From: a virus
Strand: one strand, 5' to 3'
Virus record (IMG/VR): IMGVR_UViG_3300027788_000004
Span: 32,001-96,000 of that record
Length of the DNA: 64,000 nucleotides
The position numbers were made by a program, and so were the translations under genes. The notes under the pieces are model-generated. The model was given only the letters and a program-made list of their open reading frames with translations. It had not been told where the DNA came from and ran no database searches. This document shows positions 13,930 through 56,846 of the stretch, piece by piece (within the stretch, counting starts at the first letter, position 1; each line of letters opens with the position of its first letter).

Positions 13930-14277
13930 ATGAACACTTTTGAAGAATACTTAAATAATAAAAAACCAGAAGATTTAACTAAACTATTAGCTGAATCTAT
14001 GGACTATACTCTCACTGAGGGTGAGGAGGCTCAAATAGATGATGCCGTAGCTATTTTTTTAGCAGAAGGAAACACTATTAACGAGTTTGAAGAAGAAATG
14101 ACTAATGAAGGTATGTTTGGCGCTCTTTTAGGAGGACTTACCGGAGCTGCATTAGGAAAATCTTTAGGTCGTATGGTTGCAAAGGTATTAGGAGTTCAAA
14201 AGGGAATTCTTTACGATTTATTAACATCGAGATTAGTTGGAGCTGCATTAGGTGCAACTATAGGAAAGAAATTTTAA
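13930..14277 (+). CDS. Putative internal head protein: acidic propeptide plus glycine-zipper peptide
   Basis: Starts MNTFEEYLN (capsid-targeting-like) and has LAE|S and TNE|G sites before GALLGGLTGAALG...GAALGATIG. Late motif at 13889. Confidence 0.55.
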   Translation: MNTFEEYLNNKKPEDLTKLLAESMDYTLTEGEEAQIDDAVAIFLAEGNTINEFEEEMTNEGMFGALLGGLTGAALGKSLGRMVAKVLGVQKGILYDLLTSRLVGAALGATIGKKF

Positions 14278-14295
14278 TCTCATAAAATAATATAC

Positions 14296-14919
14296 ATGAA
14301 TTTTATTGCAATAGACTTTTCAATAACATCTACAGCAGTTTGTATTTCTACTCCAGAAAAAATACATTGGTTTAATTTTGCATCTAATTTAGATCTAAAT
14401 AAAAAAGCTTTTAGGGTACATAAAGATTTAGAAGATTTAGGTTTGAATATGATAGGATATGAAAGAAATAAACCTAAAGATTTAACTTACACTCAAGAAC
14501 AATCGTTCAAAATTAACAATGCAAATCATCTATCGTTAAAAATAATAAATGCTATAGGACCTTATATAGATGAAGATACTATATTTGGGATTGAAGGATT
14601 TAGTTATGGATCTAAGGGTAATTCCTTTATAGATCTTATTACATATAATACGTTTCTTAAGTCTAAGATATTAAGAGTTTCTAATAATGATTTGCTTGTA
14701 CTTGCTCCAAAAACTATTAAAAAATCTTTTACCGGTAATGGTAATTCAGGAAAACCTTTAATGGTTCAATCTTTTGCAGATTCTAAATCGGTTGAACTTC
14801 GTAATGATCTTTTTCATGAATACGTGAAACGTGCAGATTATGGAGATAACATCCCTAAACCAATTGACGATCTAGTCGATGCTTTTGCAATAATGGAATA
14901 CTTAAAAGACTGTAACTGA
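14296..14919 (+). CDS. ruvC: RuvC-like Holliday junction resolvase
   Basis: IAIDFSITSTAV, IEGFSYGS, PKTIKK..TGNGN..K and DDLVDAFAI supply the RNase H-fold acidic residues. Confidence 0.75.
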   Translation: MNFIAIDFSITSTAVCISTPEKIHWFNFASNLDLNKKAFRVHKDLEDLGLNMIGYERNKPKDLTYTQEQSFKINNANHLSLKIINAIGPYIDEDTIFGIEGFSYGSKGNSFIDLITYNTFLKSKILRVSNNDLLVLAPKTIKKSFTGNGNSGKPLMVQSFADSKSVELRNDLFHEYVKRADYGDNIPKPIDDLVDAFAIMEYLKDCN

Positions 14920-14956
14920 TTTAACTATATTACTTTTAACTTTATTACTTATAATA

Positions 14957-16088: not shown

Positions 16089-17150
16089 ATGGAGACAAAG
16101 ACTATAATATCACAAGAGATTAAAAATAATCTCATTCAAAAACTTTCTAACGTATTATCATCAGAATTTAACGGAGAGAAAGCTAGAATTAAAGTAGGAT
16201 ATGATAGACTTAATTTTGCATGTCCGTATTGTGGAGATTCTGCAGAAAATTATAGAAAGAAACGAGGTAATGTTTATTGGAAATCGTTAATGTTTCATTG
16301 TTATAATTGTAGCAAGCACACAAACGTTTTACAATTATTAAAGGATTACGAAAATGGTTTAACTAATCATAGCGAAGTTGGAACTGTATTAGATTTTATA
16401 GCAGAAAATAAAGTAGTTGTACAATCAACAGAATACTTAGAAATAGGAGTATTTCAAAATTTACAAAAACTATCTATAGATCGAAAAGAATTTATAAAAG
16501 AATTAAAATTAACAATTCCTTCAAAAAATTCGATTGGCTATAAATTTATAAAGTCTAGATTTTTATTACAGAGAATTAATCATTTTGCATGGAGCGATAA
16601 AGATAATCAATTATATGTTTTTAATTTAACAAACGAAGATAAAATAATTGGATATCAAATAAGAAACTTTACTAAAGGGCGAACTAAATATGTGAGTTAT
16701 ACAATCGAAAAAATGTATAATGAAATGAAAAGAGAATTTAATATAAGTGAAGGCGTTGAGAAAATGAACACCCTATCGTTGTATTATAATATAATGAAGG
16801 TTGATTTATCAAGAACCTTTACTATTTTTGAAGGCCCTACTGATGCATTATTATTTCCTAATAATTCAATAGCATTGAGTGGAATAAACAAAAATTCAGA
16901 TATGTTTGATGATATGATAACTGCAAGATATTTCTTTGATAATGATTCTATTGGTAGAAAAACAATGGAACAAAAATTAAAACGAAAGAAATCTGTGTTT
17001 ATGTGGAAAAAATTCTTAAAGGAAAATAAAATAGAAAATTGCAAAGATTTTAATGATTTGATTAGGTTTTGTTATTTCCATAAAAATAGTGCTTATAAAA
17101 ATTTAGATAAATACTTTACAACAAGTCCATATGACCTCATTAACATTTAA
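16089..17150 (+). CDS. gp61: DNA primase (T4 gp61-like)
   Basis: Zn finger CPYCGDS...FHCYNC and Toprim motifs FEGPTDA and FFDND..G. Confidence 0.88.
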   Translation: METKTIISQEIKNNLIQKLSNVLSSEFNGEKARIKVGYDRLNFACPYCGDSAENYRKKRGNVYWKSLMFHCYNCSKHTNVLQLLKDYENGLTNHSEVGTVLDFIAENKVVVQSTEYLEIGVFQNLQKLSIDRKEFIKELKLTIPSKNSIGYKFIKSRFLLQRINHFAWSDKDNQLYVFNLTNEDKIIGYQIRNFTKGRTKYVSYTIEKMYNEMKREFNISEGVEKMNTLSLYYNIMKVDLSRTFTIFEGPTDALLFPNNSIALSGINKNSDMFDDMITARYFFDNDSIGRKTMEQKLKRKKSVFMWKKFLKENKIENCKDFNDLIRFCYFHKNSAYKNLDKYFTTSPYDLINI

Positions 17151-17364
17151 GAAATTCCAAGAATTTGTGAACGAAGAACTAGATCAATTTTATGAAGAGG
17201 CTGAGATAAGCCAAAAAAATTACAAAATACCAGTAGACTTAAAAAAGAAAGACTATTCGTATAGTGGTTCTATGTTGCATGTTGAAAAGGCTAAAAAACC
17301 AGATACAATTACAAAAATTAAAAAAACTTGGGTAAAACCAGGAACAACTAAAAACTTATTTTAA
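17131..17364 (+). CDS. Hypothetical protein
   Basis: 77-aa ORF between primase and uvsY, ending KNLF. Confidence 0.55.
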   Translation: MTSLTFKKFQEFVNEELDQFYEEAEISQKNYKIPVDLKKKDYSYSGSMLHVEKAKKPDTITKIKKTWVKPGTTKNLF

Positions 17365-19913: not shown

Positions 19914-21044
19914 ATGGCACTATCAAAATTTTCATCCTTCAAAAAGGAAAGATCGACGATTAAAGAATCTCGATTAAAAGAAGCCAAAGTAAAAAAGTTC
20001 AATAAGCTTTTCTCAGAAAAACTTAAAGATCTTAAAGTTGCTTCGGTTGCTGATCTTTCGGAAGATCAAATGGATTCATTTTTAGAATCGTTAAAAAAAG
20101 AAAAGGTAGTAAATGAAGATCGAGCTCGAGAAATTGAAGCCGATGTAATTGCTGCAGGAAAACCACAAGAACTTGGTTCTGCTGATTCTGAATCTGAATC
20201 GGAAAGATCTAAAAAATATAACACAGTACCTAAATCGTCAGAAGAATTAGCAGAAGATCATGTTGAAGGACATGATGAAGAAGTTGATGAAGCTAAAAAA
20301 GCAGTAAAGGAAGATGAGGAAGATGACGGAGTTGAGACTAAGGATAAAGGCGAAGAAGAAGAAGATAAAGGCGGTGAAGAAGAAGATAAAGGCGATGTAA
20401 AGGTTGATTCGGAAGATGATGCTGAAAAGGCTGATCATTATAAAGGAGCGGTTAAATCTGATGATGCTGAAATCGAAACAGATAAGAAAGAAATCAAAGC
20501 TCTTAAAAAAGATGCTGATTTTGACAAAAAGGAAGAAGAGGAAGAAGAGGAATTAGAAGAATCAGTAGTTAACGAAAAATTAGCAAAAGGATTAAAGCCT
20601 CTATTAACTATAGGTTTAACTATTACTAAGAAGACTGGTGAGGAAGCATTATTAAAACTTTCTGATGACTTTGACGCTTTAGGCGATGAAGATGCTGATA
20701 ATATAGGAAGCCACTTAAATATGGCTATTGAATTAATGCAAGATGGTTATCCTGGAGATGCTACTAAAAAATTAAAGCAATTCAATAAAGCTTGCAAGGA
20801 TGTTCTTGCTGGAAAAAAAGTTGGTTCAGCTTTTGAATCAGTTACTGAATCTTCTATCTTAGAAGCAAAGGAAATTAAATCTGATGCTGAATTTGATAAA
20901 TATGCAGATGAGATGTTAAAAAAAGCGCATCCAGACGATTTTGACGAAAAGATCGCAAAGAAAGTTAAGGATGGTCTTAAAAAGAAATACGGAGATGATT
21001 ATGGAGCTGCAGTTGGAGCTTTATCTTCAGGGTTCGGAGGATAA
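19914..21044 (+). CDS. Acidic internal head / prohead core polyprotein
   Basis: MALSKFSSF start, many [ILV]xE sites (IKES, FLES, VVNED, LEES, VVNEK, VTES, ILEA) and D/E/K-rich linkers. Confidence 0.6.
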   Translation: MALSKFSSFKKERSTIKESRLKEAKVKKFNKLFSEKLKDLKVASVADLSEDQMDSFLESLKKEKVVNEDRAREIEADVIAAGKPQELGSADSESESERSKKYNTVPKSSEELAEDHVEGHDEEVDEAKKAVKEDEEDDGVETKDKGEEEEDKGGEEEDKGDVKVDSEDDAEKADHYKGAVKSDDAEIETDKKEIKALKKDADFDKKEEEEEEELEESVVNEKLAKGLKPLLTIGLTITKKTGEEALLKLSDDFDALGDEDADNIGSHLNMAIELMQDGYPGDATKKLKQFNKACKDVLAGKKVGSAFESVTESSILEAKEIKSDAEFDKYADEMLKKAHPDDFDEKIAKKVKDGLKKKYGDDYGAAVGALSSGFGG

Positions 21045-21083: not shown

Positions 21084-22280
21084 ATGAAAAACAATTACAT
21101 GAATTTTGAAGTATTCAATGAATACCAATCAATTATAGAAAAACGAAAAAACGAATTTGATTCTTACGAGCCAATTAACGAAGCTTTTGATTCTTCTATA
21201 CTTAGACAACTATCTAGTCAAGAAAGTGGTAGTAGATGGACAAACAAATTTGCTAAAGACTTCTTCAAATTTTCTAACATTAAACTAGATAAAATTACTA
21301 ACGAAGATTTTATTCAGATTAGCCCAGCTGAATGGTGGTCTCAAGGATATTCAAAGAACAATCAAGCTATTGGATTCTTTGTAGATGATAATCCTGAATT
21401 ATTCAAATCTTGGGATACAAGATTACAGCAAAGAATGGATAATGAAGGTAAGAAATTAAAATTAAATAAAATTCTTAAGAATGCACAAGGTGTTGGACTT
21501 GTATTAACAATCATGAGAGGTAAGGTTGGTATGTGGTACGGATTCGAACAAGATGCTGGAACTAGTGGTTATCGTAGATATAAAAAATCACCAGATCAAC
21601 GATATGGTGTTCTTGCCGATCAATGGAGAACTGATTCTTCATATCGTTATGAAGGTGTTCCTTCACCAGATGCAAAAATAACTAGAAAGAATCTTGAATT
21701 AGTTGCAACTAAAGTATATGTTCTTGATATGAGTGCATTAGAATCTAAATATAGTAATTCAGAACTACAAACTGCAAGAGCCGAAGCTAAATCAGGAGCT
21801 GCAGCATTTACTACACCAGAACAAGTTAAAAAGGATAATCAAAGAAGATACGAACAAGCACTACAAGATAAAACAACACCAGATCAATTATGGAAAGATA
21901 TCAGTGGTGCATTAACTAAGTATATGAATTGGTTTCAAACTAAGCTTACCGATATTACTCCAAAAAATGCTAAAGATCTTAATACAAAAGTAAAATTTGG
22001 AGGTTGGGGACAAGAGAGTTTAATTAGACCAATCAATCAAATGCTTAGAACTATTGAAGATATGTCTAGAGAATATGACTATGCAATGAGAGATATGGAA
22101 GCTGCAGAAAAATACGCTGAAAAGATTAAGGATTCTGATGATGATCAGAAAAAACTTCAATACGAAGCAGAAGTAAGTTATTATTCAAAATCAATGGATC
22201 GATATAACACAAAGGCAATGGGTTATAGAAAAGAAATTACTCAATATGTTGCTGATGTTGATGCAATCGTAAAAGGATAA
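21084..22280 (+). CDS. Putative internal head protein
   Basis: MKNNYMNFEVFNE...PINE|A leader, followed by a folded region and a helical C-terminus. Confidence 0.55.
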   Translation: MKNNYMNFEVFNEYQSIIEKRKNEFDSYEPINEAFDSSILRQLSSQESGSRWTNKFAKDFFKFSNIKLDKITNEDFIQISPAEWWSQGYSKNNQAIGFFVDDNPELFKSWDTRLQQRMDNEGKKLKLNKILKNAQGVGLVLTIMRGKVGMWYGFEQDAGTSGYRRYKKSPDQRYGVLADQWRTDSSYRYEGVPSPDAKITRKNLELVATKVYVLDMSALESKYSNSELQTARAEAKSGAAAFTTPEQVKKDNQRRYEQALQDKTTPDQLWKDISGALTKYMNWFQTKLTDITPKNAKDLNTKVKFGGWGQESLIRPINQMLRTIEDMSREYDYAMRDMEAAEKYAEKIKDSDDDQKKLQYEAEVSYYSKSMDRYNTKAMGYRKEITQYVADVDAIVKG

Positions 22281-22294: not shown

Positions 22295-23584
22295 ATGGGT
22301 TTTTATAACTACTCGCAATTTGTTTCAGAAAGTGCTATCAATCAATTTTTATTTGAGGGTGGTTCTTTTGGACATATGGCTCATCCATACGATGATGTTA
22401 ATTTAACATTCAGCGAAATCAAAGATTTAATTTCAGATGCACTTCAAGGAGGCTTAAATAAAGAGGTTGTTACAACTGAAAAATTAGATGGCCAAGCAAT
22501 CGCAGTATCATGGAAAGATGGTAGATTGATTGCATCTAGAAACAAAGGCGATCGAAAGAACTTTGGTGCTGCAGGTTTAACTATACAAGATGTAATAACT
22601 AAATTTGAAGGTCGTGGAGATCTAGCAGATGCCTTTACTTTTGCAATGCAAGATCTAGAATCTGCAATATCTAAGATTAACCCAAAGGAACGAGAGAAAA
22701 TTTTCGGAGAGGGAAAGCGTTTTATGCATTTAGAATTGATTTATCCAAAAACATCGAATGTAATAAATTATGATACACCTAAATTGATATTCCATAATAC
22801 AACAGAATATGATGAAGCTGGTAACGCAGTAGGTGAAGATAAGTCAAATGCATCTACGTTAACAAAACTTATTAAGGATGTTAATGCAGACGTTCAAAAG
22901 AATTTTCAAATAGATCCTCCAAAGGCTGTTGAATTTTCTAAGAATATAAATTATGAATCGGATCGAGCTAGTTTTTATACAGAATTATCAAAAATTCAAA
23001 AATCTACAGGTCTTAAAGATAATCAATCGATAAAAGATTATATTAGAAAACAATACGCCGAAACAATCGAAGGTATGGCTTCTAAGTATGGTTATGATTT
23101 AGCACCTAATATATTAGAAGGTTTAATAAATAGATTCGCATTTCAAGATAAAAGTTTTAGAATTCCTGATATTAAAAAGGCAATAACTAATAAAGATTTT
23201 TTGAAATGGACATTAGATTTTGCTAAAGAAAAAAACGTAGCAAATTATTACAAACAAATTATTTCACCATTTGAAAATCTTTTCTTGAGATTAGGTGTGA
23301 GAGTTATACAATTAGCTACTGGATTCTTAGCATTGAATCCTGATAAAGTAGTTAAAGATATTAAAACTGAATTAGAATCTGGAATTAAAAATCTTAGATC
23401 TTCCGGAAGTGAAGCTGCAAAAGCTAAATTAGAGGCTCAATTAAAAAAATTACAAGCTATTGGAGGATTTGATGCAGTATTACCTTCAGAAGGAATAGTA
23501 TTTCAACATAAAGGAAAGACTTATAAACTTACTGGAGCATTCGCCCCGGTTAATCAGATTCTTGGAATTCTTAGATACGGCTAA
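22295..23584 (+). CDS. RNA/DNA-ligase-superfamily nucleotidyltransferase-like protein with capsid-targeting leader
   Basis: TEKLDG (motif I), EGIVF (motif IV) and YKLTG (motif V), plus N-terminal GHMAHP. Leader [13 protein letters not shown]...LFE|GG. Confidence 0.6.
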
Positions 23585-29711: not shown

Positions 29712-29936
29712 ATGAAAAACACAATAAATAAAGGTGGACCTAAAATAGATATAAAAAACACAACTCCTGTTAAATGCAGCGAATGTGATTCTGAGTATTT
29801 TCAACAAGCTACACAATTTAGAAAGGCATCTAGATTACTTACTGGTGCTGCAAAAGATACTATGATTCCAATACCAACTATGCGGTGTGCAGATTGTGGA
29901 AATGTTAATGAAGAGTTTAAGATAGAAGAAATATGA
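29712..29936 (+). CDS. Small zinc-ribbon protein
   Basis: CSEC...CADC. The likely start is the ATG at 29712, just after the dut stop, rather than 29652. Confidence 0.7.
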   Translation: MKNTINKGGPKIDIKNTTPVKCSECDSEYFQQATQFRKASRLLTGAAKDTMIPIPTMRCADCGNVNEEFKIEEI

Positions 29937-31318: not shown

Positions 31319-31319
31319 A

Positions 31320-33179: not shown

Positions 33180-33181
33180 TT

Positions 33182-33210: not shown

Positions 33211-33232
33211 AATAAAACAAATATATTATTAA

Positions 33233-47230: not shown

Positions 47231-48814
47231 ATGGCTGGATTTGTAGAAAGAGGCGATTCAAACGCAGGTAACCGATTTGTTGCTTCAGGTGCGTTAAAAC
47301 AATTAAGTTCGTTTGGAATGAAGTACGATGATATGGTACTTCGAAATTCTCAAGCGGTTGGTATAGTTGAAGATCAATTTGGTTGGACTTACGATCCAAG
47401 AGGGTTAGTTGGTGGAGATTATGATGATTATGCATTATTTGCTAACTTAGCATTATCTGATATAGCACTTAAAAAATCAATATCAGTATTTGATAAATCA
47501 TATCCTAAGAAACGAGAAGAACTTCGTAGATTTGCGGTACAAGATGAAATTGAAGAAATTCTAGATACTTTGTGTGATGAATGTATTGTATATGATGATA
47601 AAAACTATTTTGCAGATCCTTTATTATTTGATGATGATTTATTAGCAAACGATAAAGTAGATGAAATTAGAGGAGCTATTTCTATAAACTTCAAACGAAT
47701 TTATCAGTACTTTGGTTTTAATAATGATATCACAGCATGGTCATACTTTAGAAAATTTTTAGTTGATGGATATCTTGCGTTTGAGATTATATTTGATAAT
47801 GAACAAAGAAACATTATCGGTTTCAAAGAATTAGATCCAATTTCTTTAGAACCTGGAATTGATGATCAAGGAAAACGAGTATGGAAACAATTCAAAGATA
47901 TTCCAGCAAAAGCTAGAACCTTATATGATTCACAAATTATATACCTATCGTATGCAAACTTAAATTCGCCAACTAGAATTTCTTATGTTGAACGTCTTAT
48001 TAGATCTTTTAATCTTCTTAGAATTATGGAACATTCTAGAATTATATGGTCGGTGGTTAATTCATCATTCAAAACTAAATTTATTATACCTGTAGGTGGT
48101 AAGTCAAAAACAAGAGCAAAACAATCTCTTGGTGTTCTTATGCAAAACTATCGAGAACAAGTTGACTTTAACTTTGATTCTGGAGAATTAAAAACTAATG
48201 GACGTCCGATGATGCCATTTAATAAAGAATATTGGTTACCTGAAGGTGATGCTGGTTCTCCACAAATAGAAACAATTGGTGGAGATGGACCAGATTTATC
48301 AGATACAGATTCTCTAAATTACTTCAAAGAAAATTTACGTAGAGTATCTAAAATACCTATGAATAGATTCGATGTTGAAAATCCTCCATCATGGGAAATC
48401 AATGCAGAAGGAATGACTAGAGATGAAATCAAATTTGGTAGATTCATTAATAGACTTAGATCTGTATTTCAAGAAATCATAGTAAAACCACTATGGATTC
48501 AAATGACTTTAGATTATCCAGATCTTATGAATGATGATTCATTCAAAGCTCAAGTCGGTGTTAAATTTAATAAATATAACATCTTCGAGGAAATGAAGGA
48601 AATGGAATTATTGCAGAAACGAATTGACTTTGTAACTGCAATGAAAGATGGACTTGTCGATTACGATCCTAATGGAAATGAAATTAAATACTTCTCTTCC
48701 GAATGGTTAATTCGACGATTTATGGGACTTAACGAAGAAGAAATCAAGTCAAATGATCTTATGAAGAAAAAGGAACAAGATCATTTAGATCAGATGGCCG
48801 ACGAAGAAATGTAA
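47231..48814 (+). CDS. gp20: Portal protein (T4 gp20-like)
   Basis: FRKFLVDG, SYVERLIR.FN.LR.ME, EYWLP, LRRVSKIP.NRF and RDEIKF.RFINRLR. Confidence 0.92.
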   Translation: MAGFVERGDSNAGNRFVASGALKQLSSFGMKYDDMVLRNSQAVGIVEDQFGWTYDPRGLVGGDYDDYALFANLALSDIALKKSISVFDKSYPKKREELRRFAVQDEIEEILDTLCDECIVYDDKNYFADPLLFDDDLLANDKVDEIRGAISINFKRIYQYFGFNNDITAWSYFRKFLVDGYLAFEIIFDNEQRNIIGFKELDPISLEPGIDDQGKRVWKQFKDIPAKARTLYDSQIIYLSYANLNSPTRISYVERLIRSFNLLRIMEHSRIIWSVVNSSFKTKFIIPVGGKSKTRAKQSLGVLMQNYREQVDFNFDSGELKTNGRPMMPFNKEYWLPEGDAGSPQIETIGGDGPDLSDTDSLNYFKENLRRVSKIPMNRFDVENPPSWEINAEGMTRDEIKFGRFINRLRSVFQEIIVKPLWIQMTLDYPDLMNDDSFKAQVGVKFNKYNIFEEMKEMELLQKRIDFVTAMKDGLVDYDPNGNEIKYFSSEWLIRRFMGLNEEEIKSNDLMKKKEQDHLDQMADEEM

Positions 48815-48875: not shown

Positions 48876-50633
48876 ATGAATGAAGCAAATTTATTAGTAC
48901 TGGAAAGATCTACCTGTGTACTAGAAGCAAACGGAACTGGTGACGACAAGTACGTTTTAGAAGGAACTTTTTCAGAGATCGGAAAGAAGAATAAGAATAA
49001 TCGTATTTACGATGAGAAAGAACTTATTCCTCATATCGACGAGTTACAGGAAAAAATCAAAAGCGGAAAGCTATTAGGGGAATTAGATCACCCGAAACAA
49101 TTTGACATATCGTTAAAGAACGTATCCCATGTTATAGAAGAAATCAAATACGATAAAGCTAATAAAAAAGTTACTGGAAAGATTCGATTATTAGATACTG
49201 ATGCTGGAAAGCAAGCTAAGGCTTTAGTTGATGGAGGTATCCCTATTCACATATCTAGCAGAGCTGCTGGTGTTGTAGAAAGCAACGGTCATGTAAAAAT
49301 TAAGAAACTATTTACTTATGATTTAGTTGCAGATCCTGGTTTTGAGAATGCAGAACTAAAACGTGTTAACGAATCATTTGGTTTTGATAATCACGGTGAT
49401 ATACAGATATATGAGTTGAATGGATATATAGAACAGAATAACAAAGAAATTCAAAAAGAATTAACTACCATGGAAAAAAACGATACATCTATAAATGAAT
49501 CAACTGGCAATTATGTTACAGTAGATGATTTTAACGAATACTCAAAAATTATTAAAGAAGAAATCGAAAAGGCTAAAGGCGAATTAATTGACTTATCCGA
49601 ATCTTCTAAAAATGATGATCTTGTAAAATACTCAGAGCAAATCGCGTCGAGAGTAAATAAAATATCTGAATATGTTGAAGGTGTTGCTGAAAACGTAGAT
49701 AATCTTATTTCACATAACGATTATATTATAGAGAACCTTTCTAAAGTTAAAGATTACGCAGAATATGTGGGATTAAAAACAGATCAAAATATAGAATACT
49801 CTAAACATATTGCTGAGAACGTTAATACAAGAACATCTTATCAAGATTATGTTAATGAACATGTTGATAAAGTAATAGATTACCAAAACTATATAGTTGA
49901 AGGTCTTGATGCTACAACAAATTATGCAGAATATCTAAAAGAAAATTTAGAAAAACTTGGTAATTATACAGATTATGTAGTTTCTTCATTAAACGAAACG
50001 AAAGTTGAAGATAATAAAGAAGAAACTAAAGAAACAATAAATGAATCAGAAACAGTTGAATCAACTAACGTTGAAGAACTAGTTACTGAAAACGAAACAT
50101 TCAAATCAGAATTAAACGAAAAAATTACAGCGTTGGTCGAATCAGCTAAGAAGCAAAAAGTTGAAGAAACATCTGTAAATACACATTTCTTACATTTCTT
50201 GAATGAAGATCGCAGATCTAACTATAAGGATTTAGACGATGAGGCTAAGGCGAAAGTCATTAGAGCTTATGAATCTACCGATTGGTTTGGATCTAACGAT
50301 GCTTCAGGAATATGGGAAAGTGTATTCGCCGAACCTATAAAAAAAATCGATTGGTTAGAAAGTAGACCTGAGAAATTCGATAGTCTTTGGGAGTCCTTAA
50401 ATGAGGATTCTAAAAATTCTATCAAAGCTCAAGCAACTATGAGAGATCTTGATACACAGTACAAGATCGATCACTTCTGGGCAACACGAGATTTAAGAGG
50501 TTCAAACCCATCTGAACAAATTGATGAATCTAAGAAAATGGTTAACGAAAGTGAATCATCTACTTATGAAACACAAGGTGTTTACATGGACTCTGTTACA
50601 GAGGGGCTTAAAAAACGCTTTAACAGAAGTTAA
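48876..50633 (+). CDS. gp21: Prohead protease (gp21-like) fused to a scaffold/core domain (gp22-like)
   Basis: N-terminal KNKNNRIY, LGELDHP, VSH.I, ISSRAAG and YDLVADPGF. The C-terminal ~400 aa are an acidic coiled coil with Y..Y periodicity and many [ILV]xE sites. Confidence 0.88.
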   Translation: MNEANLLVLERSTCVLEANGTGDDKYVLEGTFSEIGKKNKNNRIYDEKELIPHIDELQEKIKSGKLLGELDHPKQFDISLKNVSHVIEEIKYDKANKKVTGKIRLLDTDAGKQAKALVDGGIPIHISSRAAGVVESNGHVKIKKLFTYDLVADPGFENAELKRVNESFGFDNHGDIQIYELNGYIEQNNKEIQKELTTMEKNDTSINESTGNYVTVDDFNEYSKIIKEEIEKAKGELIDLSESSKNDDLVKYSEQIASRVNKISEYVEGVAENVDNLISHNDYIIENLSKVKDYAEYVGLKTDQNIEYSKHIAENVNTRTSYQDYVNEHVDKVIDYQNYIVEGLDATTNYAEYLKENLEKLGNYTDYVVSSLNETKVEDNKEETKETINESETVESTNVEELVTENETFKSELNEKITALVESAKKQKVEETSVNTHFLHFLNEDRRSNYKDLDDEAKAKVIRAYESTDWFGSNDASGIWESVFAEPIKKIDWLESRPEKFDSLWESLNEDSKNSIKAQATMRDLDTQYKIDHFWATRDLRGSNPSEQIDESKKMVNESESSTYETQGVYMDSVTEGLKKRFNRS

Positions 50634-50676: not shown

Positions 50677-52401
50677 ATGAATTTAATTAATGAATCTGAA
50701 ATTTTTTCTAAGTGGACTCCGATTATCGAGAGCACTACTGGAATTGAAGACAGATCTAAACTAGAATGGATGTCTAAGTATTGTCATAACCATGAGTTGT
50801 ACGAGAATAATTCGACTGCAACTGTAGGTTCTGTTAATGGTATGGGTGCCGTACGTTTCCCAGCTCCTCCTGGAGCTCAGACTGCGTTCGCTACTCAAAC
50901 TACTGGATCTGGTGATAAGCCTTACACTTTGCTTCCTCTTGCTATGCAAGTTGCTGCTCAGACTGTAGGTTTAGACCTTGTACCAGTTGTACCAATGAAT
51001 GGACCAATGGGAGTGCTTACTTATTTAGACTTCGTCTACGGCGGTGGTAAAGTACCACAAACCGGACAAACTGCTGCATTTAACGCTACAACAGCTGGAG
51101 ATGCACCAAACATGCCACTACTTATTAAAGTAGACTGGCCGACGGGAGCTTCTTCTTTTGGAAGTGTACCTAAAGGAACAGTTGGTGGACTTAATGCTGT
51201 AGGTAACGTTCCTGGTGGAACTGTTACTTTTGTAGGACAATCAAGAATTGACGGTTACCCAATCTTCAAAGTTGACTCTCTTACTGCAGGATTATCAATC
51301 GCTGACTTATTCGGAACTGCAACTGGTGTAACTTTCTCTGGAGGTATTGCAACTGCCGGTATCGGTAGTGTAGCAATTTCTGTAGGAAATGCAACATTAG
51401 TAAAAGCTCTTGAAGATCATGTTCAAGGATTCTCATCTAACGATTACACTGGTTCTACTGAGCCAATGTCAAGAGTACAAGGTGAGGGTACTGTAGATAA
51501 CGTAATGAATTTAAGTTTATTCAACAAATCTGTTGAAGCACAAACTTTCCAAGTTGCTGCTGCAGTAACTAGAGAGCAAGTACAAGACTTAAAACAATTC
51601 GGTATCGATGCTGTTGCTCAAGTTGAATCAGTTCTTATTAACGAATTGACTCAATCAATTAACAGAAACATCTTAGGAAGAGTAAGAAGATTAGGTTATT
51701 CTAATGCTCAAGGTATTTTTGCTTCACAAGGTGTACAATTCAACCTATGGGTTGGATCTATATTAGGTGCTACAACTTATTCGACTGTATATGGAACTTA
51801 CGGTGCTAGTGCAACTGCATTAGATACTGCTCAAGGTAACGGACTACAAGCGTTTGGTATTGGTGCATCTTCTAATCCTGTTATAAACAACTCTGAAACT
51901 AATTCTAACGCAGAGAACTTACATACTAGACAACGTAAAGTAATGTCTAAATGTTTAGCTGCTGCAAATATGATTGCGATCAGAGGTAGAAGAGGTCCTG
52001 CTACTTTCGTAGTAACTAACGGACAACTTGGTACTGCACTTCAAGATTGTGCTGGATTCGTTCCTGCACCATTGATGAATACACTAAACCAACAAACTGG
52101 CTCATTATACCCTATCGGTACTTTAGCTGGATTGGTTGTTTACGTAGATCCATTAATGTCATGGGGTGATACTCGAGTGACTGTAGGTAGAAAAGGTGAC
52201 GGAAACTCTCCAGGTATTGTATTTATGCCATACTTAATGGCTGAATCAGTACAAACTATTGCTGAAGGAACAATGGCGCCGAAAATCGCTGTGAAATCTA
52301 GATATGCATTAGTTGAGGCTGGATTCCATCCTGAAACTATGTACTTATCATTCGGTGTTGTTTATGGTGATAATATCTTAGCTGGTGGTGGTCTTGCGTA
52401 A
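50677..52401 (+). CDS. gp23: Major capsid protein (T4 gp23-like)
   Basis: KWTPIIE, VVPMNGPMG, EQVQDLK..GIDA, NELTQSINR.IL, RRGPATFVV, FMPY and KSRYAL. Confidence 0.93.
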   Translation: MNLINESEIFSKWTPIIESTTGIEDRSKLEWMSKYCHNHELYENNSTATVGSVNGMGAVRFPAPPGAQTAFATQTTGSGDKPYTLLPLAMQVAAQTVGLDLVPVVPMNGPMGVLTYLDFVYGGGKVPQTGQTAAFNATTAGDAPNMPLLIKVDWPTGASSFGSVPKGTVGGLNAVGNVPGGTVTFVGQSRIDGYPIFKVDSLTAGLSIADLFGTATGVTFSGGIATAGIGSVAISVGNATLVKALEDHVQGFSSNDYTGSTEPMSRVQGEGTVDNVMNLSLFNKSVEAQTFQVAAAVTREQVQDLKQFGIDAVAQVESVLINELTQSINRNILGRVRRLGYSNAQGIFASQGVQFNLWVGSILGATTYSTVYGTYGASATALDTAQGNGLQAFGIGASSNPVINNSETNSNAENLHTRQRKVMSKCLAAANMIAIRGRRGPATFVVTNGQLGTALQDCAGFVPAPLMNTLNQQTGSLYPIGTLAGLVVYVDPLMSWGDTRVTVGRKGDGNSPGIVFMPYLMAESVQTIAEGTMAPKIAVKSRYALVEAGFHPETMYLSFGVVYGDNILAGGGLA

Positions 52402-52522: not shown

Positions 52523-54907
52523 ATGAAAATTATTTCTAGAAATTCATTCAATCATATAAATGAAGCGGTTTTTGGTGTACGTTTATCAGGATATTCAAAA
52601 GAAGATTTTGAAAGACTTAATCATACCGAACTATCAGATGCACTTAAACAGATATTATTACTATCAGGCGGAGGATTCACGACCGAATCCATTTCATGTC
52701 TAAAACAATCTTTACTAAAACATAATTTATTAGAAGAATCAAGATTTGATAAAGTTATTTTTGATAAATCAGTCAATGAAGAAAACCTTAATGAGGATGA
52801 CCATTTAGCAATGATTGATGATCTTATTAAAGGTACTGCAGCAATTGGACTAGCTGGTGCTGTTGGTATGGGAGCATACATAAACTTTTTAGGTAAAAAG
52901 AAAAAGATCAAAAAGGCTTGGACTAATGTATATAAAGCAAAGGGAGATGAATCTGATATTGATTTAGAAACGTGGCAAGAGAAACAAGCGTTAAAAGCTG
53001 AATTAACTAAAGATGAAGTTACTGATAAGACAGGACAAGTTGAAACAACTATAACTAATAAGAAAGAAGAATTAACGAACGTTGATAAAACATGGGATGA
53101 AGATAAAAAGGAAGCTAAGCAAAAACTTGATGATACTAAGAAGTTATTATATGAATTAGATCCTAAAACATATAACGACCCAGAAGCAAAATCTTCAGTA
53201 AAACCAGCAAAGGAAAGTTTGAAAGAAGAAGAAACCGAAAAGGAAGATAAAAAGGATGATGGACCTGAAGGAGATTTACAAAAAGCACAAAACGCAGTTA
53301 AAGATGCAAGACCTGATGAAAAGGAAATAGAAAAGGAATTAATACCAATTGATAAACAAATTCAAGGAGGTATTGATAAAATGGCAGATTTCAAAGGAGA
53401 TAAGAAAGAAAAGGCTGCGGCTGGTAAAAAATGGGCAAAAGAAAAATCTAAATTACAAGATAATAAAGAAAAGATTAAAGATGGATCTTCTAATAAAAAA
53501 TTACAAGCTGCTAAAAAGGAGTTAGAAGGAATAAAAAAACAACTCGAATCTGAACAAAAGAGATTAGAAAAAAGAAAGGCAGATTACGCAGAATACGCTG
53601 ATGGATCTACTAAAGAAACGAAATCAAAATTAAAGGACGAGATAGATGATCTTCGAGGAGAAATTGATAAGATAAAGGAAAGAGGCCAACCAAAGGGAGA
53701 TGCTAGTGATGTTCAAAAAATAGATGATATCGGTAAGCAAAAGAAAGAGAACGTTAAGCAAGAAATTCAAGCTTTAGCAGATGAGGCTGATCGAGTAAGT
53801 GGAACTAAAGATGGAGGTAAGGAGGCTGCTGGTTTAGCTGGTAAAGCTCTTGGTATGAAATCAGGATTTACTAAAAAGGTAAAAGGTGAATTAGAAAAGG
53901 ATCTAATAAAACAGAAAAAGTCTAACATTGAAAAAATGGGAGATGATAAACGAGCAGAATCATTAGATATATTAGCTAAAGAAGCCGATAAAAAAGCTGC
54001 AGAAGGAGATAAAAAATTCCAAGACGAAAAGAAAAAGGTTGATGCATCTGATAAAGAAAAGCAAGAAGCTGAGGATAAGGTGGCTGCAAAATTAGCTAAA
54101 GATGCTGAGGATAAAAAAGCAAAGAATACGGAAAAGACCGCTGAGTTAAATAAAGAAATCGCTAATTTACAATCAGGCGATTCAAAGGGTAAGGAAGAAC
54201 AAATTGCTAATCTACAAACTCAGATTAATAAATTACAAACAGAACACCGTTCGGTTACAACAAAATTCAAAATTGCAATTTTAGAAGCTGAGCTTAGGAA
54301 AATAACGGAAGAAGATAAAGATGCAAAAAGTAGTAATGATAATACATTATTAAACAAAACGGTTATACTGAGTGATCTCTCAGGAACCGATATGAGTCAT
54401 CTAGATGGAGCTGAGGGAGTTGTTACTAAGTCTTTCAAAGAAGGCGAACGAGAACCTGAAGGAGATATGCCAAGAAGATCAGGAGATCCTGAATTATTCA
54501 AAATAGAATTAAAGGATCCTCAAGATCCTATGTATCCAGATGTTAACTTACCAGCAAAAAACATAAAAATTCTTGATAAAAAGGCTGATGATAGTGAAGA
54601 AGAAGAAACAAAAACCGAAGAAAGTTTTAGATCTAAATTTAATTCGGCAATGAACGAAGAGAATAATAAGATGAATCATCAAGCTGAACTCGAACAAAGT
54701 GCAGATAATAATAAAGAATTAGCAGAACTTAAAAAGTATAAGCAAAGATTATATGATTCTGGAGAATCTGCAGCGGTTAGTACTTGGGAATCGTTTGAAA
54801 AACGAGTTATAGGTAAAGATGGCACATGGGAGCTTGCACCTACACAATCATATGCAAAAGCTATAACACAACTAAAAGATCTTATAGGTAAATATAGTAT
54901 AAAATGA
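52523..54907 (+). CDS. Large K/E/D-rich coiled-coil protein with one hydrophobic segment (putative internal/ejected protein)
   Basis: MKIISRNSFNHINE|A leader, VNE/LNE sites, GTAAIGLAGAVGMGAYINFLG followed by KKKK, and a long coiled coil. Late motif at 52489. Confidence 0.55.
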   Translation: MKIISRNSFNHINEAVFGVRLSGYSKEDFERLNHTELSDALKQILLLSGGGFTTESISCLKQSLLKHNLLEESRFDKVIFDKSVNEENLNEDDHLAMIDDLIKGTAAIGLAGAVGMGAYINFLGKKKKIKKAWTNVYKAKGDESDIDLETWQEKQALKAELTKDEVTDKTGQVETTITNKKEELTNVDKTWDEDKKEAKQKLDDTKKLLYELDPKTYNDPEAKSSVKPAKESLKEEETEKEDKKDDGPEGDLQKAQNAVKDARPDEKEIEKELIPIDKQIQGGIDKMADFKGDKKEKAAAGKKWAKEKSKLQDNKEKIKDGSSNKKLQAAKKELEGIKKQLESEQKRLEKRKADYAEYADGSTKETKSKLKDEIDDLRGEIDKIKERGQPKGDASDVQKIDDIGKQKKENVKQEIQALADEADRVSGTKDGGKEAAGLAGKALGMKSGFTKKVKGELEKDLIKQKKSNIEKMGDDKRAESLDILAKEADKKAAEGDKKFQDEKKKVDASDKEKQEAEDKVAAKLAKDAEDKKAKNTEKTAELNKEIANLQSGDSKGKEEQIANLQTQINKLQTEHRSVTTKFKIAILEAELRKITEEDKDAKSSNDNTLLNKTVILSDLSGTDMSHLDGAEGVVTKSFKEGEREPEGDMPRRSGDPELFKIELKDPQDPMYPDVNLPAKNIKILDKKADDSEEEETKTEESFRSKFNSAMNEENNKMNHQAELEQSADNNKELAELKKYKQRLYDSGESAAVSTWESFEKRVIGKDGTWELAPTQSYAKAITQLKDLIGKYSIK

Positions 54908-55383
54908 AAATAACAAGAAGTAAGGCTGGTAAAAATCCAACTAGACATGGTATTGTTTTACGTGGACTTAAACCAACTTATAAAGAGGTATTAAAGAAAC
55001 ATGAATTTATAAAGGACCATTGTAAAGATGATAATTTTGTACATCTTTTATTTAGTCTTATTGATAGAGAAAATATACAAAAAAATAAAAGCAAATACTT
55101 TATAGATCCTACTGATGGAGAAGTTAAAGATAGAAAAATTCTTATAGATGAAATAAAAATAGTTCCTTGGAAATGTTCTTATTGTGAATGTAAAATAAAA
55201 TCTAAAATGGAAGATTTTTCTACAAAGAATTTTACATGTAAAAAATGCTATAAGGCATACGTTAAAGATGAGAAAAAAATAAGTCAATTAGTTTTAGAAA
55301 ATTCAGTAGAATTTGCTGAACTTTGTAAAAGATTAATAAATAGAGATAGAAAAACATTCCTTAAATATATACAAAATAAATGA
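54904..55383 (+). CDS. Basic zinc-binding protein
   Basis: CSYC...CKKC motif. Confidence 0.6.
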   Translation: MKITRSKAGKNPTRHGIVLRGLKPTYKEVLKKHEFIKDHCKDDNFVHLLFSLIDRENIQKNKSKYFIDPTDGEVKDRKILIDEIKIVPWKCSYCECKIKSKMEDFSTKNFTCKKCYKAYVKDEKKISQLVLENSVEFAELCKRLINRDRKTFLKYIQNK

Positions 55384-56846
55384 AACACTTCGAAAAATAC
55401 CAAATGATAACAGAAGCCTTATCATTGAATAAAGTTCAAGTAGTTATCTTGTCTAATTTAGACTCGAAATCTACAACAGTAGACTCTATAAAATCTGAAT
55501 GCAATAAGCGAGGAATTCCTTGTAATGCATTAGATGTTAAAACATCTCATATAAAAGAATACGTAAATAAGAGAAACGATATTAAGATAGGCGATGCTAA
55601 AACAAAACCATTCGCAATTAATAGATTAAACACTGTTGTAATAGCAAGAAGAGGAGTAGTATCTACAACATACACTCAAAAATTATTACAAGATTTAGAA
55701 AAGGCAAACTTCTTTTGTGTAAATGGCCTTGAACCTACAATGATTTGTGAAAATAAAAATACAACTAATACTATATTAGAAGCTGCTGGATTACCAACAC
55801 CAAAAAACACAATCATTAGCGATGTCGAAGGAGTTGATTTAGCGCTTAAAACTATTGGTGGAAAATTTCCAGTTATTGTAAAACTTCTTTCAGGATCTCA
55901 AGGTATAGGAGTTTCTCAGGTAGATTCTTACGAATCGTTGGTTTCTGTATTACAAACTTTATGGAAAGCTAGCGGAAAGAATGAAGTACTCTTACAAGAA
56001 AAGGTACCTGCAGATGGTGATGTTAGAATCCAAGTATTATCTAGGAAATTCTTTAGTCCCGATGATGAATCTTCTGAAATAGTTGCAGCGATGAAAAGAA
56101 CTTCAGCTAAAAAAGATTTTAGAACTAATTATTCTATTGGTGGAGGCGTTAAAAAGATTAAGTTAACTAAAGAAATGGAAGAAATATCTAAAGGTGCCGC
56201 TAAAGCAGTTGACTGTGCATGGTGTGCAGTAGATTTAATTATAGACAAAGAAACTAAAAAACCATATATATTAGAAGTTAACGCTTCACCAGGAACTAAA
56301 GGTATTACAGAAGCAACTGGTATTAATGTTGTTGGAGAAGTTATGGACTATGTATTAAATAAAGATAATTGGACTTATCCAACTATCAATTGTGGTTATA
56401 GAGAATGTTTAACATTACCTGGAGTTGGAGAATTGGTGGTAAAGATGGATACCGGTAATGGTGCTAAAGGGATGGCATTTCATGGAGATAAAATTGAAGA
56501 AGATGGTAAATATCTTAATTGGGAAATTGGAGATAATAAATTCAGAGATAAAATAGTTGGATATTCAGAGCCTATGGATACTCATGGTGAGACAATGAAA
56601 AGACCGATAATAGAAAGGGATTTAGTATTTGCTGGAAAACTAGTTCCTAAAGTTCCTATTTCAATTGTAGATAGAACGGCTAAAAGCACACCAGTATTAG
56701 CAAATAGAAAATTCATGGATAGACTAGGTATTGTTGTGAGTCCTTCTAAAGCCTTTAAGGCTACTCAATTCACTGGAGAATTTGATTGGTCTAAATCTCA
56801 AGGTGATAAACACGGCGGAATAAATTTTGACACCAAAGAGAAATAA
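55380..56846 (+). CDS. rimK: RimK-family ATP-grasp ligase fused to a RimK-associated (retropepsin-like) protease
   Basis: GLPTP.., FPVIVK...GSQGIGV, LLQE, DVRI, DFRTN...GG and LEVNASPG. C-terminal VKMDTG.GA and DR.....PVL.NR.FM. Confidence 0.85.
   Translation: MKHFEKYQMITEALSLNKVQVVILSNLDSKSTTVDSIKSECNKRGIPCNALDVKTSHIKEYVNKRNDIKIGDAKTKPFAINRLNTVVIARRGVVSTTYTQKLLQDLEKANFFCVNGLEPTMICENKNTTNTILEAAGLPTPKNTIISDVEGVDLALKTIGGKFPVIVKLLSGSQGIGVSQVDSYESLVSVLQTLWKASGKNEVLLQEKVPADGDVRIQVLSRKFFSPDDESSEIVAAMKRTSAKKDFRTNYSIGGGVKKIKLTKEMEEISKGAAKAVDCAWCAVDLIIDKETKKPYILEVNASPGTKGITEATGINVVGEVMDYVLNKDNWTYPTINCGYRECLTLPGVGELVVKMDTGNGAKGMAFHGDKIEEDGKYLNWEIGDNKFRDKIVGYSEPMDTHGETMKRPIIERDLVFAGKLVPKVPISIVDRTAKSTPVLANRKFMDRLGIVVSPSKAFKATQFTGEFDWSKSQGDKHGGINFDTKEK

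What the first reader, a model, noticed from the sequence alone, without database searches (positions are those of the whole stretch)
13930..56846. Capsid-cargo system: about 12 late proteins with capsid-targeting leaders and protease-delimited modules
Seen: many otherwise unrelated late ORFs begin with the same type of peptide: MNTFEEYLN (13930), MALSKFSSF (19914), MKNNYMNFEVFNE (21084), [12 protein letters not shown] (22295), MKHIKSYDEYLLE (25445), MAKIKSFDEFVNE (42265), MKIISRNSFNHINE (52523) and MKHFEKYQMITE (55380). The motif also occurs internally: PTFEDYF in 26084, PSLSEFVSVNE in 27859, IKSFDEF in 28488. These ORFs are punctuated by [ILVM]-x-E|[SAGD] sites (VNE, INE, LNE, LLES), which are also dense in the gp21 scaffold and the gp23 N-terminus. 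Known: T4 internal proteins use the CTS MKTYQEFIAE, and gp21 cuts after [IL]-x-E. Inference: this phage has expanded the system into polyproteins whose domains are packaged, released by the prohead protease and injected. The cargo would include enzymes, giving a pre-loaded effector kit rather than a few small IPs.
Basis: partly seen in the sequence, partly recalled or inferred. Interest (0 to 1): 0.85.

Follow-up and report, generated by a model that had tools for sequence, protein, structure and literature searches.

The report
T4-type capsid-targeting leaders, expanded
An uncultured T4-like phage puts the same short N-terminal peptide that T4 uses to load internal proteins into its head on more than a tenth of its proteins, including enzymes, which suggests an unusually large packaged protein cargo that has not been tested experimentally.

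Summary
The core observation is real and stronger than reported. The window is part of a 132,786-bp T4-like phage contig. It has gp20 portal, an S77 prohead protease fused to a scaffold, gp23 capsid protein and gp55.

The strict motif [FYW]xx[FYW][VLIMF]xE lies in the first 20 residues of 11 of 129 ORFs. It occurs in 6 of 1024 internal windows (p=1.6e-7). In 80 related IMG/VR loci it heads 108 of 939 distinct ORFs.

A matrix trained only on the relatives gives T4 IPII and IPIII (MKTYQEFIAE) their best scores at the N-terminus. The four conserved leader positions match the T4 residues reported to control targeting (4, 7) and processing (8, 10).

Orthologues of the RimK-like ATP-grasp protein, and the families of ORFs 21084, 22295, 42265 and 52523, keep the leader.

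- Generic [ILVM]xE density is not raised in the cargo bodies (1.72 versus 1.59 per 100 aa).
- 26084 is not a member.
- 17131 was missed.
- Nine more bearers lie downstream of the window.
- The polyprotein idea holds only for the 42265 family, where variable cassettes are bounded by VNE|A.

New here: the scaffold is an array of 14-residue repeats carrying the same motif. Packaging, cleavage and injection are inferred, not shown.

The parts
13930..14277 (+). 115-aa protein with a variant leader, MNTFEEYLNN..LAE|S. The aromatic pair sits at residues 4 and 7. The first L-x-E is at residues 20-22. The C-terminus is glycine-zipper-like.
   Evidence: relaxed match. Late-like promoter 35 nt upstream. 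No orthologue evidence.
17131..17364 (+).
   Evidence: Matrix score 22.0 bits at residue 5. Top hit of the scaffold-repeat matrix, 19.0 bits.
19914..21044 (+). 376-aa, very acidic (net -39), low-complexity protein. The leader is weak: MALSKFSSFKKERSTIKE|S. It has internal VVNE sites.
   Evidence: Late-like promoter 44 nt upstream. Membership is uncertain.
21084..22280 (+). 398-aa basic protein with a two-part propeptide. An FxxF pair lies near the N-terminus. A family-conserved INE|AF site lies at residue 33.
   Evidence: All 37 of 37 homologues keep the aromatic pair and the [IL]NE|A site.
22295..23584 (+). 429-aa basic protein with a canonical leader, [13 protein letters not shown]. It belongs to a conserved viral family. 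DUF6267 is only a lead from the ESM Atlas.
   Evidence: Of the homologues read, 13 of 14 short forms have a leader. All 7 of 7 long forms carry an N-terminal cytidylyltransferase-like extension instead.
25445..26074 (+). 209-aa acidic protein with a canonical leader, MKHIKSYDEYLLE|S.
   Evidence: Matrix score 24.5 bits at residue 3. Late-like promoter.
27859..28473 (+). 204-aa protein with no aromatic N-terminal leader. Its C-terminal 76 residues are a cassette that starts at SVNE|A and is shared with 42265.
   Evidence: 70% identity over 76 aa, E=7e-33. [LIV]NE: 3 observed against 0.3 expected.
28488..29213 (+). 241-aa protein. Residues 7-51 copy the capsid protein's residues 36-80, including the L-x-E site. 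A leader-like string sits at the C-terminus but has no cleavable Glu.
42265..44001 (+). 578-aa protein with the best canonical leader, MAKIKSFDEFVNE|N. A conserved 65-aa head domain follows, then variable cassettes bounded by xVNE sites, an acidic tail and DUF3175.
   Evidence: Matrix score 32.6 bits..
45672..46031 (+). gp55-like late sigma factor.
   Evidence: phrog_234, E=3.8e-10.
47231..48814 (+). gp20-type portal protein.
   Evidence: PF07230, E=2.2e-70.
48876..50633 (+). Prohead protease (S77, residues about 26-137) fused to a scaffold. The scaffold is built of about nine 14-residue repeats carrying Y-x-x-Y-[VIL]-x-E (residues about 253-378). A conserved FLHFLNE|D lies at residue 438.
50677..52401 (+). 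gp23-type major capsid protein. Conserved INE|S (residues 4-6), IIE|S (16-18) and LYE|N (41-43) lie in its N-terminal propeptide region.
   Evidence: 53 distinct orthologues aligned. T4 comparison.
52523..54907 (+). 794-aa protein directly after the capsid gene, with a variant leader, MKIISRNSFNHINE|A. It has a double site SVNEENLNE|D at residues 83-92, a hydrophobic segment near residues 103-122, and a long K/E-rich region.
   Evidence: All 4 orthologues whose N-terminus aligns (of 5 hits) keep [FY]-x-x-[IL]-N-E.. Late-like promoter.
54904..55383 (+). 159-aa conserved partner gene upstream of the ATP-grasp gene. It has no leader.
   Evidence: 42 homologues in the related loci. No family above threshold.
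55380..56846 (+). 488-aa RimK-like ATP-grasp enzyme with a variant leader, MKHFEKYQMITE|A.
   Evidence: PF08443, E=2e-30. All 14 of the 18 homologues that were printed carry leader-like N-termini, some canonical such as MKIIKSYEDFLNE|A. The Mosig homologue starts MQVQPFKNYLEE|A.

Best explanation
The shared N-terminal peptide is a T4-type capsid-targeting propeptide.

**Proposed mechanism.**
- Two aromatic residues three positions apart would dock the protein onto the assembling scaffold core of the prohead.
- The aliphatic-x-Glu that follows is the site where the gp21-type prohead protease (ORF 48876) removes the peptide once the shell has closed.

**Extent.** At least 13 proteins carry the leader, and up to about 18 of 129. 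Six to nine are in the window and nine lie downstream of it.

**Two classes of bearer.**
1. Basic, folded, enzyme-like proteins: ORFs 21084 and 22295, the RimK-like ATP-grasp 55380, and G000 125329. By analogy with T4 IPs and Alt, these probably stay in the head and leave with the DNA.
2. Strongly acidic, low-complexity proteins with extra [LIV]NE sites: 19914, 25445, 42265, 52523. These probably act as auxiliary core proteins or as cleavable carriers.

**What is shown.** The motif, its position, its conservation across the clade, its match to the experimentally defined T4 sequence, the presence of the protease, and the repeat structure of the scaffold.

**What is inferred.** Binding to the scaffold, cleavage, retention in the head and injection.
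For: **Position-locked enrichment.**
- Genome: 11 of 129 ORFs against 6 of 1024 internal windows.
- Clade: 108 of 939 distinct ORFs against 208 of 12261 internal windows. The first aromatic residue is at residue 7 in 70 of the 108.

**An independent matrix ties the motif to T4.**
- It recovers the N-termini in this genome.
- It gives T4 IPII and IPIII their best scores at residue 0.
- Its top hit in T4 gp23 is the maturation site FGSFLTE|A.
- The T4 literature places targeting at CTS residues 4 and 7 and processing at residues 8 and 10, with gp21 cutting after L/I-x-E (PMC9026906, passages read).

**The protease is present.** PF03420 matches at E=6e-11. BLAST against T4 gp21 gives E=2e-10, and the GEL(D/N)HP and SSR blocks align.

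**The bodies are unrelated.** Only 1 pair among 20 candidates is similar. None of the 9 downstream bearers has a family above the curated threshold.

**Orthologues keep the leader while their sequence drifts**.

**Selection acts on the peptide.** Leader codons vary synonymously.

**Promoters.** A late-like motif, [AG]ATATATA[AG], precedes the portal and protease genes and 5 of the 17 leader genes scored.

**Controls.**
- 0 of 63 ORFs in a 50-kb stretch of the cultured pelagiphage Mosig.
- 0 of 38 ORFs around the capsid gene of LR756500.

**One experimental hint.** A 31%-identical RimK-like homologue in Yersinia phage YerA41 was detected in purified particles by LC-MS/MS.
Against: - There are no virion proteomics, N-terminal data or expression data for this phage or any close relative. 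The clade is uncultured.
- The YerA41 particle proteome also lists many replication enzymes, so its specificity is doubtful. Its homologue also lacks a clear leader.
- Many bearers are strongly acidic (net -15 to -49), unlike the basic T4 IPs. That fits retention beside DNA poorly.
- Only 5 of 17 leader genes have the late-like motif directly upstream. ORF 17131 lies among replication genes.
- Some assigned members are degenerate (13930, 19914). About 3.7 relaxed matches are expected by chance, and the gp32-like 15119 is probably one of them.
- The scaffold repeats prefer Tyr and Ala where the leaders prefer Phe and Asn. The reciprocal matrix gives mostly low scores.
Confidence: 0.8

Rival explanations
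1. The leader-bearing proteins are mostly auxiliary prohead core or scaffold proteins, like T4 gp67 and gp68. They would be chopped up and expelled before DNA packaging, so there is no injected effector kit.
For: - Four large bearers are very acidic and low-complexity: 19914, 25445, 42265 and 52523.
- ORF 42265 has 5 [LIV]NE sites against 0.7 expected.
- ORF 52523 sits directly after the capsid gene and is conserved there.
- The leader resembles the scaffold's own repeat.
- T4 core proteins are cleaved into fragments that leave the head (PMC9026906).
Against: - The enzyme-like bearers (21084, 22295, 55380, G000 125329) are basic, with pI 8.7-9.4.
- ORF 21084 has 1 internal [LIVM]xE against 4.5 expected. 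Per-protein site counts for the other three were not examined.
- Small leader-bearing ORFs occur in variable arrays, as in the T4 internal-protein loci.
- An ATP-grasp ligase has no obvious scaffold role.
Confidence: 0.35
2. The peptide is only a protease-removable propeptide that keeps the proteins inactive until cleavage. It has no role in capsid targeting.
For: Every canonical leader ends in a gp21-type site.
Against: - The two aromatic positions are as conserved as the cleavage positions.
- They match the residues that control targeting, not processing, in T4.
- In T4, gp21 becomes active only after prohead assembly is complete (PMC9958956), so substrates would have to be inside the prohead to be cut.
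Confidence: 0.08
3. The conservation is at the nucleotide level, for example a translation-initiation element or a recombination hotspot, and not at the peptide level.
For: The motif always lies directly after the start codon. Cassette junctions in the 42265 family coincide with VNE-coding sequence, which could favour recombination.
Against: - Codons for Phe, Asn, Glu and Val vary synonymously among leaders.
- The same peptide motif recurs internally in the scaffold repeats.
- It also matches the T4 peptide.
Confidence: 0.03

Closest known systems
Bacteriophage T4 capsid-targeting sequence of internal proteins IPII and IPIII (also IPI and Alt), removed by the gp21 prohead protease
   Same: - N-terminal peptide of 10-20 residues.
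- Aromatic residues three apart, followed by aliphatic-x-Glu.
- T4 IPII and IPIII score 11.3 and 17.6 bits on this clade's matrix.
- Otherwise unrelated, fast-evolving bearer proteins, often in arrays.
- T4-type head module with an S77 protease.
   Different: - More than 10% of the ORFs carry it here, against a handful in T4.
- Bearers reach 794 aa and include an ATP-grasp enzyme.
- P2 is almost always Asn, and P1' is usually Ser, Ala or Asn.
- Many bearers are acidic rather than basic.
- Protease and scaffold are one polypeptide, and the scaffold is a 14-residue repeat array carrying the same motif. T4 gp22 shows no such aromatic repeat.
- Nothing has been tested experimentally.
Head, inner-body and ejection proteins of the giant phages phiKZ, 201phi2-1 and SPN3US
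   Same: Many head-internal proteins, some of them enzymes, are processed by a gp21-related protease after x-x-Glu. Propeptides hold several redundant sites (PMC5694885, passages read).
   Different: Four SPN3US proteins have propeptides over 100 residues long, and the cleavage motif is S/A/G-x-E. Here the leaders are 12-33 residues with an aliphatic P3. The protease matches S77 better than S80 (E=6e-11 against 1.4e-5).
T4 gp22, gp67 and gp68 scaffold and core proteins
   Same: They are dense in [LI]xE sites. T4 gp22 has 16 in 269 aa, and ORF 48876 has 33 in 565 aa.
   Different: Here the scaffold is fused to the protease. It consists of regular 14-residue units, each ending in a site.

Membership tests
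T4-type capsid-targeting sequence / internal-protein system | A short targeting peptide at the extreme N-terminus of otherwise unrelated proteins | tested here: met
   Strict motif in 11 of 129 ORFs, starting at residues 6-9. Only 1 similar pair among the 20 candidate bodies.
T4-type capsid-targeting sequence / internal-protein system | Aromatic residues at the positions of T4 IPIII residues 4 and 7 (the targeting determinants) | tested here: met
   Matrix columns 4 and 7 are F/Y in 95 of 95 training leaders and F/Y/W in 95 of 95. T4 IPII and IPIII score best at residue 0. The role of residues 4 and 7 is taken from PMC9026906.
T4-type capsid-targeting sequence / internal-protein system | The peptide ends in the gp21 cleavage motif L/I-x-E | tested here: met
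   P3 is L, V or I in 94 of 95 training leaders, and P1 is E in 95 of 95. This is partly forced by the selection regex. Val is common here, whereas the T4 motif is given as L/I.
T4-type capsid-targeting sequence / internal-protein system | A gp21-type (S77) prohead protease and a T4-type head module in the same genome | tested here: met
   PF03420 at E=6e-11, PF07230 portal and PF07068 Gp23. BLAST against T4 gp21 gives E=2e-10.
T4-type capsid-targeting sequence / internal-protein system | Late expression together with head genes | tested here: inconclusive
   The late-like motif precedes the portal and protease genes and 5 of 17 leader genes. The promoter class is inferred, and there are no expression data.
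T4-type capsid-targeting sequence / internal-protein system | Proteins are present in proheads or virions, and the leader is removed by the protease | not testable with these tools
   The clade is uncultured. The only indirect hint is the YerA41 homologue found in particles.
T4-type capsid-targeting sequence / internal-protein system | Mature proteins are ejected into the host with the DNA | not testable with these tools
   No data.
phiKZ/SPN3US-type processed head proteins | Long propeptides (about 80-275 residues) and an S/A/G-x-E cleavage motif | tested here: not met
   Leaders are 12-33 residues with an aliphatic P3. The features of the comparison family come from PMC5694885.

The most novel reading that the evidence does not exclude
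In this uncultured T4-like clade the capsid-targeting peptide may be a free-standing copy of the scaffold's own 14-residue repeat unit.

- Cargo would be loaded by slotting into the scaffold's repeat array.
- The protease cut that dismantles each scaffold repeat would also release the cargo.
- On that basis the clade would have turned the T4 device into a general loading system. It would take more than 10% of the proteome, including an ATP-grasp ligase.
- It would also use carrier polyproteins (the 42265 family) whose interchangeable cassettes are bounded by VNE|A sites.
Probability: 0.3. Interest if true: 0.75.

Novelty: new variant of a known kind. Interest (0 to 1): 0.62.

Why it matters
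How T4 selects proteins for its head is still described as unresolved: the core structure is unknown and the targeting peptide's partner has not been identified (PMC9958956, passage read).

- **Deep conservation.** A distant clade keeps exactly the four functional positions of the T4 peptide. This shows the device is old and under selection.
- **A concrete partner to test.** The repeat-built scaffold that carries the same motif is a specific, testable candidate for the binding partner.
- **A ready list of candidates.** The leader marks packaged proteins directly in metagenomic phage genomes. Here that gives about 18 proteins, and 108 in the neighbouring contigs. Among them are likely counter-defence or host-takeover factors that homology searches cannot find.
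- **A possible tool.** The leader could also be a second, orthogonal packaging tag for phage-based delivery.

Tried and rejected
**Tests that led nowhere or went against a claim.**
- *Generic [LIVM]xE enrichment in cargo bodies:* tested and rejected.
- *ORF 26084 as a bearer:* rejected. It scores -1.3 bits and has no Glu. It has a cytidylyltransferase domain.
- *ORF 26084 as a leaderless paralogue of 22295:* rejected. The best BLAST E-value is 0.017 over 65 aa.
- *Function of 22295 from solved structures:* a profile search of PDB sequences found nothing below E=0.27. The ESM Atlas gave only a DUF6267 lead, carried by 21-24% of cluster members. No paper holds that term.
- *Retropepsin-like C-terminal domain in 55380:* only a sub-threshold PF05618 hit, 16.6 bits against a cut-off of 27.
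- *W54904 homologues in YerA41 or Mosig:* none found.
- *Reciprocal scaffold-repeat matrix:* leaders are enriched among its top hits, but scores are low apart from 17131. The training regex also fixes four positions, so this is suggestive only.
- *Scaffold-leader binding:* complex prediction with 48876 residues 240-460 and 42265 residues 1-85 returned no answer. This counts neither for nor against binding.
- *TATAAATA, the T4 late promoter as I recall it:* not enriched, 18 found against about 28 expected.

**Literature.** Full-text searches were 'capsid targeting sequence' (21 papers), 'capsid-targeting' (244, mostly HIV), a five-term search and a four-term search. None of the papers listed in these searches describes such leaders outside the T-even, P1 and phiKZ-like phages. 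Supplements were not available. Table S2 of the YerA41 paper could bear on the particle-association claim.


Full report
**Context.**
- The window is bases 32001-96000 of a single 132,786-bp contig. It has about 31% G+C and almost every ORF is on the + strand.
- It is a T4-like phage. Family searches found:
  - gp15 (41334), gp55 late sigma (45672), gp4 (46037) and gp2 (46514);
  - gp20 portal (47231), an S77 prohead protease fused to a long C-terminal region (48876) and gp23 capsid protein (50677);
  - a T4-type replication set: gp32-like SSB, primase, helicases, a split DNA polymerase, UvsX, gp46/47 and a clamp loader.
- The capsid protein is 53% identical to that of an uncultured 462-kb phage and 36% identical to Lak phages.
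- IMG/VR holds at least 590 relatives. I kept 80 loci, L001-L080.

**The observation.**
- The strict pattern [FYW]xx[FYW][VLIMF]xE falls within the first 20 residues of 11 of 129 ORFs. It falls in 6 of 1024 internal 35-residue windows (Fisher p=1.6e-7).
- A relaxed pattern (aromatic pair in the first 12 residues, then [LIVM]xE by residue 35) gives 20 of 129 against 29 of 1024 (p=4e-8). About 3.7 of the 20 are expected by chance. The gp32-like 15119 is probably one such false hit.
- I trained a 13-column matrix only on 95 distinct leaders from the related loci. Eleven of its top 13 hits in this genome sit at residues 2-5 of a protein.
- In the relatives, 108 of 939 distinct ORF products carry the strict motif at the N-terminus, against 208 of 12261 internal windows (p=2e-46).
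  - The first aromatic residue is at residue 7 in 70 of the 108.
  - P1' is Ser in 41, Ala in 26 and Asn in 13.
  - 37 of the 80 loci have at least one such ORF (the raw count before removing duplicates was 135 of 1206).
- Most internal hits lie in protease-scaffold homologues.
- Leader codons differ synonymously between genes, so selection acts on the peptide.
- Among 20 candidate bearers, only 27859 and 42265 resemble each other beyond the leader.

**What it is.**
- I fetched T4 from its public record. IPII and IPIII (MKTYQEFIAE...) get their best scores on the clade-trained matrix at the very N-terminus, 11.3 and 17.6 bits.
- IPI has the aromatic pair but a more distant cleavage site, like several variants here.
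- In T4 gp23 the top hit is the maturation site FGSFLTE|A.
- PMC9026906 (passages read) states three things:
  - the first 10 residues of IPIII suffice for packaging;
  - targeting depends mainly on residues 4 and 7, and processing on residues 8 and 10;
  - gp21 cuts after L/I-x-E.
- These are exactly the four conserved leader positions.
- The protease domain of 48876 aligns with T4 gp21 at 31% identity over 109 residues, E=2e-10. The GEL(D/N)HP and SSR blocks are conserved. That these blocks hold the catalytic His and Ser is my recollection, not a tool result.
- The capsid protein's N-terminus is homologous to T4's (SKWTPIIES against NKWKPLLEG). It has three [LIV]xE sites conserved across 53 distinct orthologues. 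One is L-x-E at residues 41-43, just before the mature region.

**Members in the window.**
- Variants backed by orthologues:
  - 55380. Relatives start MKIIKSYEDFLNE|A, MMNLKYFSDFVNE|A and similar. All 14 printed N-termini of its 18 homologues are leader-like.
  - 52523. All 4 orthologues whose N-terminus aligns (of 5 hits) keep [FY]-x-x-[IL]-N-E.
  - 21084. All 37 of 37 homologues keep an FxxF pair and a conserved [IL]NE|AF site near residue 33, giving a two-part propeptide like T4 IPI.
- Variants without orthologue evidence: 13930 and 19914.
- Downstream of the window, at G000 coordinates: 117934, 120088, 120534, 121363, 121852, 128172 and 128540 are canonical. 125329 and 127825 are variants. 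127825 starts MKTFKNF..VNE|A, much like T4 IPI.
- None of these nine has a Pfam or PHROG family above threshold.

**Cargo types.**
- 55380 is a RimK-like ATP-grasp (PF08443, E=2e-30). It is paired with a conserved 159-aa gene, 54904 (42 homologues).
- Its homologue in the cultured Pelagibacter phage Mosig starts MQVQPFKNYLEE|A.
- Its 31%-identical homologue in Yersinia phage YerA41 is annotated as structural. It appears to be the 'ribosomal protein modification protein' starred as particle-associated by LC-MS/MS in PMC7354516 (passages read). I inferred this correspondence from gene neighbourhood, because the two numbering schemes differ. That proteome also lists many replication enzymes, so this is weak support.
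- 22295 belongs to a large viral family, 962 hits.
  - Of the 21 members I read, 13 of 14 short forms have a leader.
  - All 7 long forms have an N-terminal cytidylyltransferase-like extension instead.
  - So the leader behaves as an exchangeable module.
- After the predicted cleavage, 21084, 22295, 55380, G000 125329 and 17131 are basic (pI 8.7-9.4).
- 19914, 25445, 42265 and 52523 are strongly acidic (net -15 to -49).

**The polyprotein claim.**
- [LIVM]xE density in the bodies of 17 bearers is 1.72 per 100 aa, against 1.59 in 107 other proteins, and equals the shuffled expectation. The general claim fails.
- The narrower [LIV]NE is raised: 11 observed against 4.2 expected, with 5 against 0.7 in 42265, and also in 27859 and 19914.
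- A 76-residue cassette is 70% identical between 27859 and 42265 and starts at SVNE in both.
- I aligned 42265 with three orthologues.
  - The leader plus head domain is conserved and ends at KVNE.
  - The middle cassettes differ between phages.
  - A roughly 70-residue insertion in L030 is bounded by EVNE|A and MVNE|A.
  - L004 skips the middle altogether.
- This one family therefore looks like a carrier with cleavable, exchangeable cassettes.

**The scaffold.**
- Residues about 253-378 of 48876 form about nine 14-residue repeats of the type Y-x-[EN]-Y-[VIL]-x-E-N-[LV]. FLHFLNE|D follows at residue 438.
- The 40 homologues printed, of 77 found in the loci, carry 1-10 copies of the motif. In several they stand at exact 14-residue spacing.
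- They have 4.9-6.4 [LIVM]xE per 100 aa.
- The repeat and the leader share aromatic-x-x-aromatic-aliphatic-x-Glu. The repeat prefers Tyr and Ala where the leader prefers Phe and Asn.
- A matrix built from 168 repeat units puts leaders in 7 of its top 15 hits outside the scaffold, mostly with low scores.
- T4 gp22 has many [LI]xE sites but no such aromatic repeat.
- The idea that a leader is a single scaffold unit is a hypothesis. The complex prediction gave no answer.

**Controls and limits.**
- A 50-kb stretch of Mosig has 0 of 63 annotated ORFs with a strict leader, and its separate scaffold has one motif copy.
- The capsid neighbourhood of LR756500 has 0 of 38.
- The expansion is therefore specific to a subclade.
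- A late-like motif, [AG]ATATATA[AG], lies 10-60 nt upstream of a start in 28 of its 39 occurrences. These include the portal, protease and gp15 genes, 44057, 19914, 27859 and five leader genes.
- Replication genes tend to have CATATAAT instead. Both promoter classes are inferred.

**Verdict.** The finding is real. It is a T4-type capsid-targeting and processing system, greatly expanded and architecturally modified in an uncultured clade. The 'effector kit' and 'polyprotein' readings are only partly supported and await experiments.

Noticed in passing
28488-29213 (+): Residues 7-51 of this 241-aa protein are 51-58% identical to residues 36-80 of the clade's capsid proteins. The match includes the L-x-E just before the mature N-terminus. 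It may be a capsid-lattice accessory protein that borrows the capsid protein's N-arm.
   Followed up: partly
29933-35112 (+): The DNA polymerase is split into an N-terminal ORF (29933, 461 aa) and a C-terminal ORF (33979, 377 aa). A ribonucleotide reductase gene (31320) and an unknown 248-aa ORF (33233) lie between them.
   Followed up: no
Whole contig, e.g. upstream of 29264, 33233, 36720, 59325, 60735: There are two upstream motif classes. CATATAAT lies before replication and nucleotide-metabolism genes. [AG]ATATATA[AG] lies before structural genes. The latter may be this clade's gp55-dependent late promoter. It differs from TATAAATA, the T4 late promoter as I recall it, which is not enriched here.
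   Followed up: partly
Upstream of 57042 and 57598; also G000 109535 and 131029: A near-identical AT-rich intergenic element (..gtattatatttatattataataa..) recurs before four genes. It may be a strong early promoter or a regulatory repeat.
   Followed up: no
54904-56846 (+): The gene pair of a 159-aa unknown and a RimK-like ATP-grasp is conserved next to the capsid gene across the clade. The ATP-grasp's C-terminal 159 residues give a sub-threshold hit to the PF05618 'Zn_protease' domain.
   Followed up: partly
22295-23584 (+) and homologues P0048-P0120: This conserved viral family has an invariant EGGxxGHMxHPxDD block and a TEKxDGQ block. It occurs either with a capsid-targeting leader or fused behind a cytidylyltransferase-like domain. 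The window's 26084 also ends in a cytidylyltransferase domain but is not a detectable paralogue.
   Followed up: partly
13930-14277, 19914-21044, 52523-54907: Three leader-bearing proteins contain Gly/Ala-rich hydrophobic segments. These are a glycine-zipper hit in 13930, GTAAIGLAGAVGMGAYINFLG in 52523 and GAAVGALSSGFGG at the end of 19914. They may be membrane-active ejection proteins.
   Followed up: no
5725-10071 (+) and G000 6-6686: Very large ORFs with collagen-like Gly-x-x repeats (GGPPGPIGPFGPI; MTGLTGLRGLTG...). They are presumably tail fibres.
   Followed up: no
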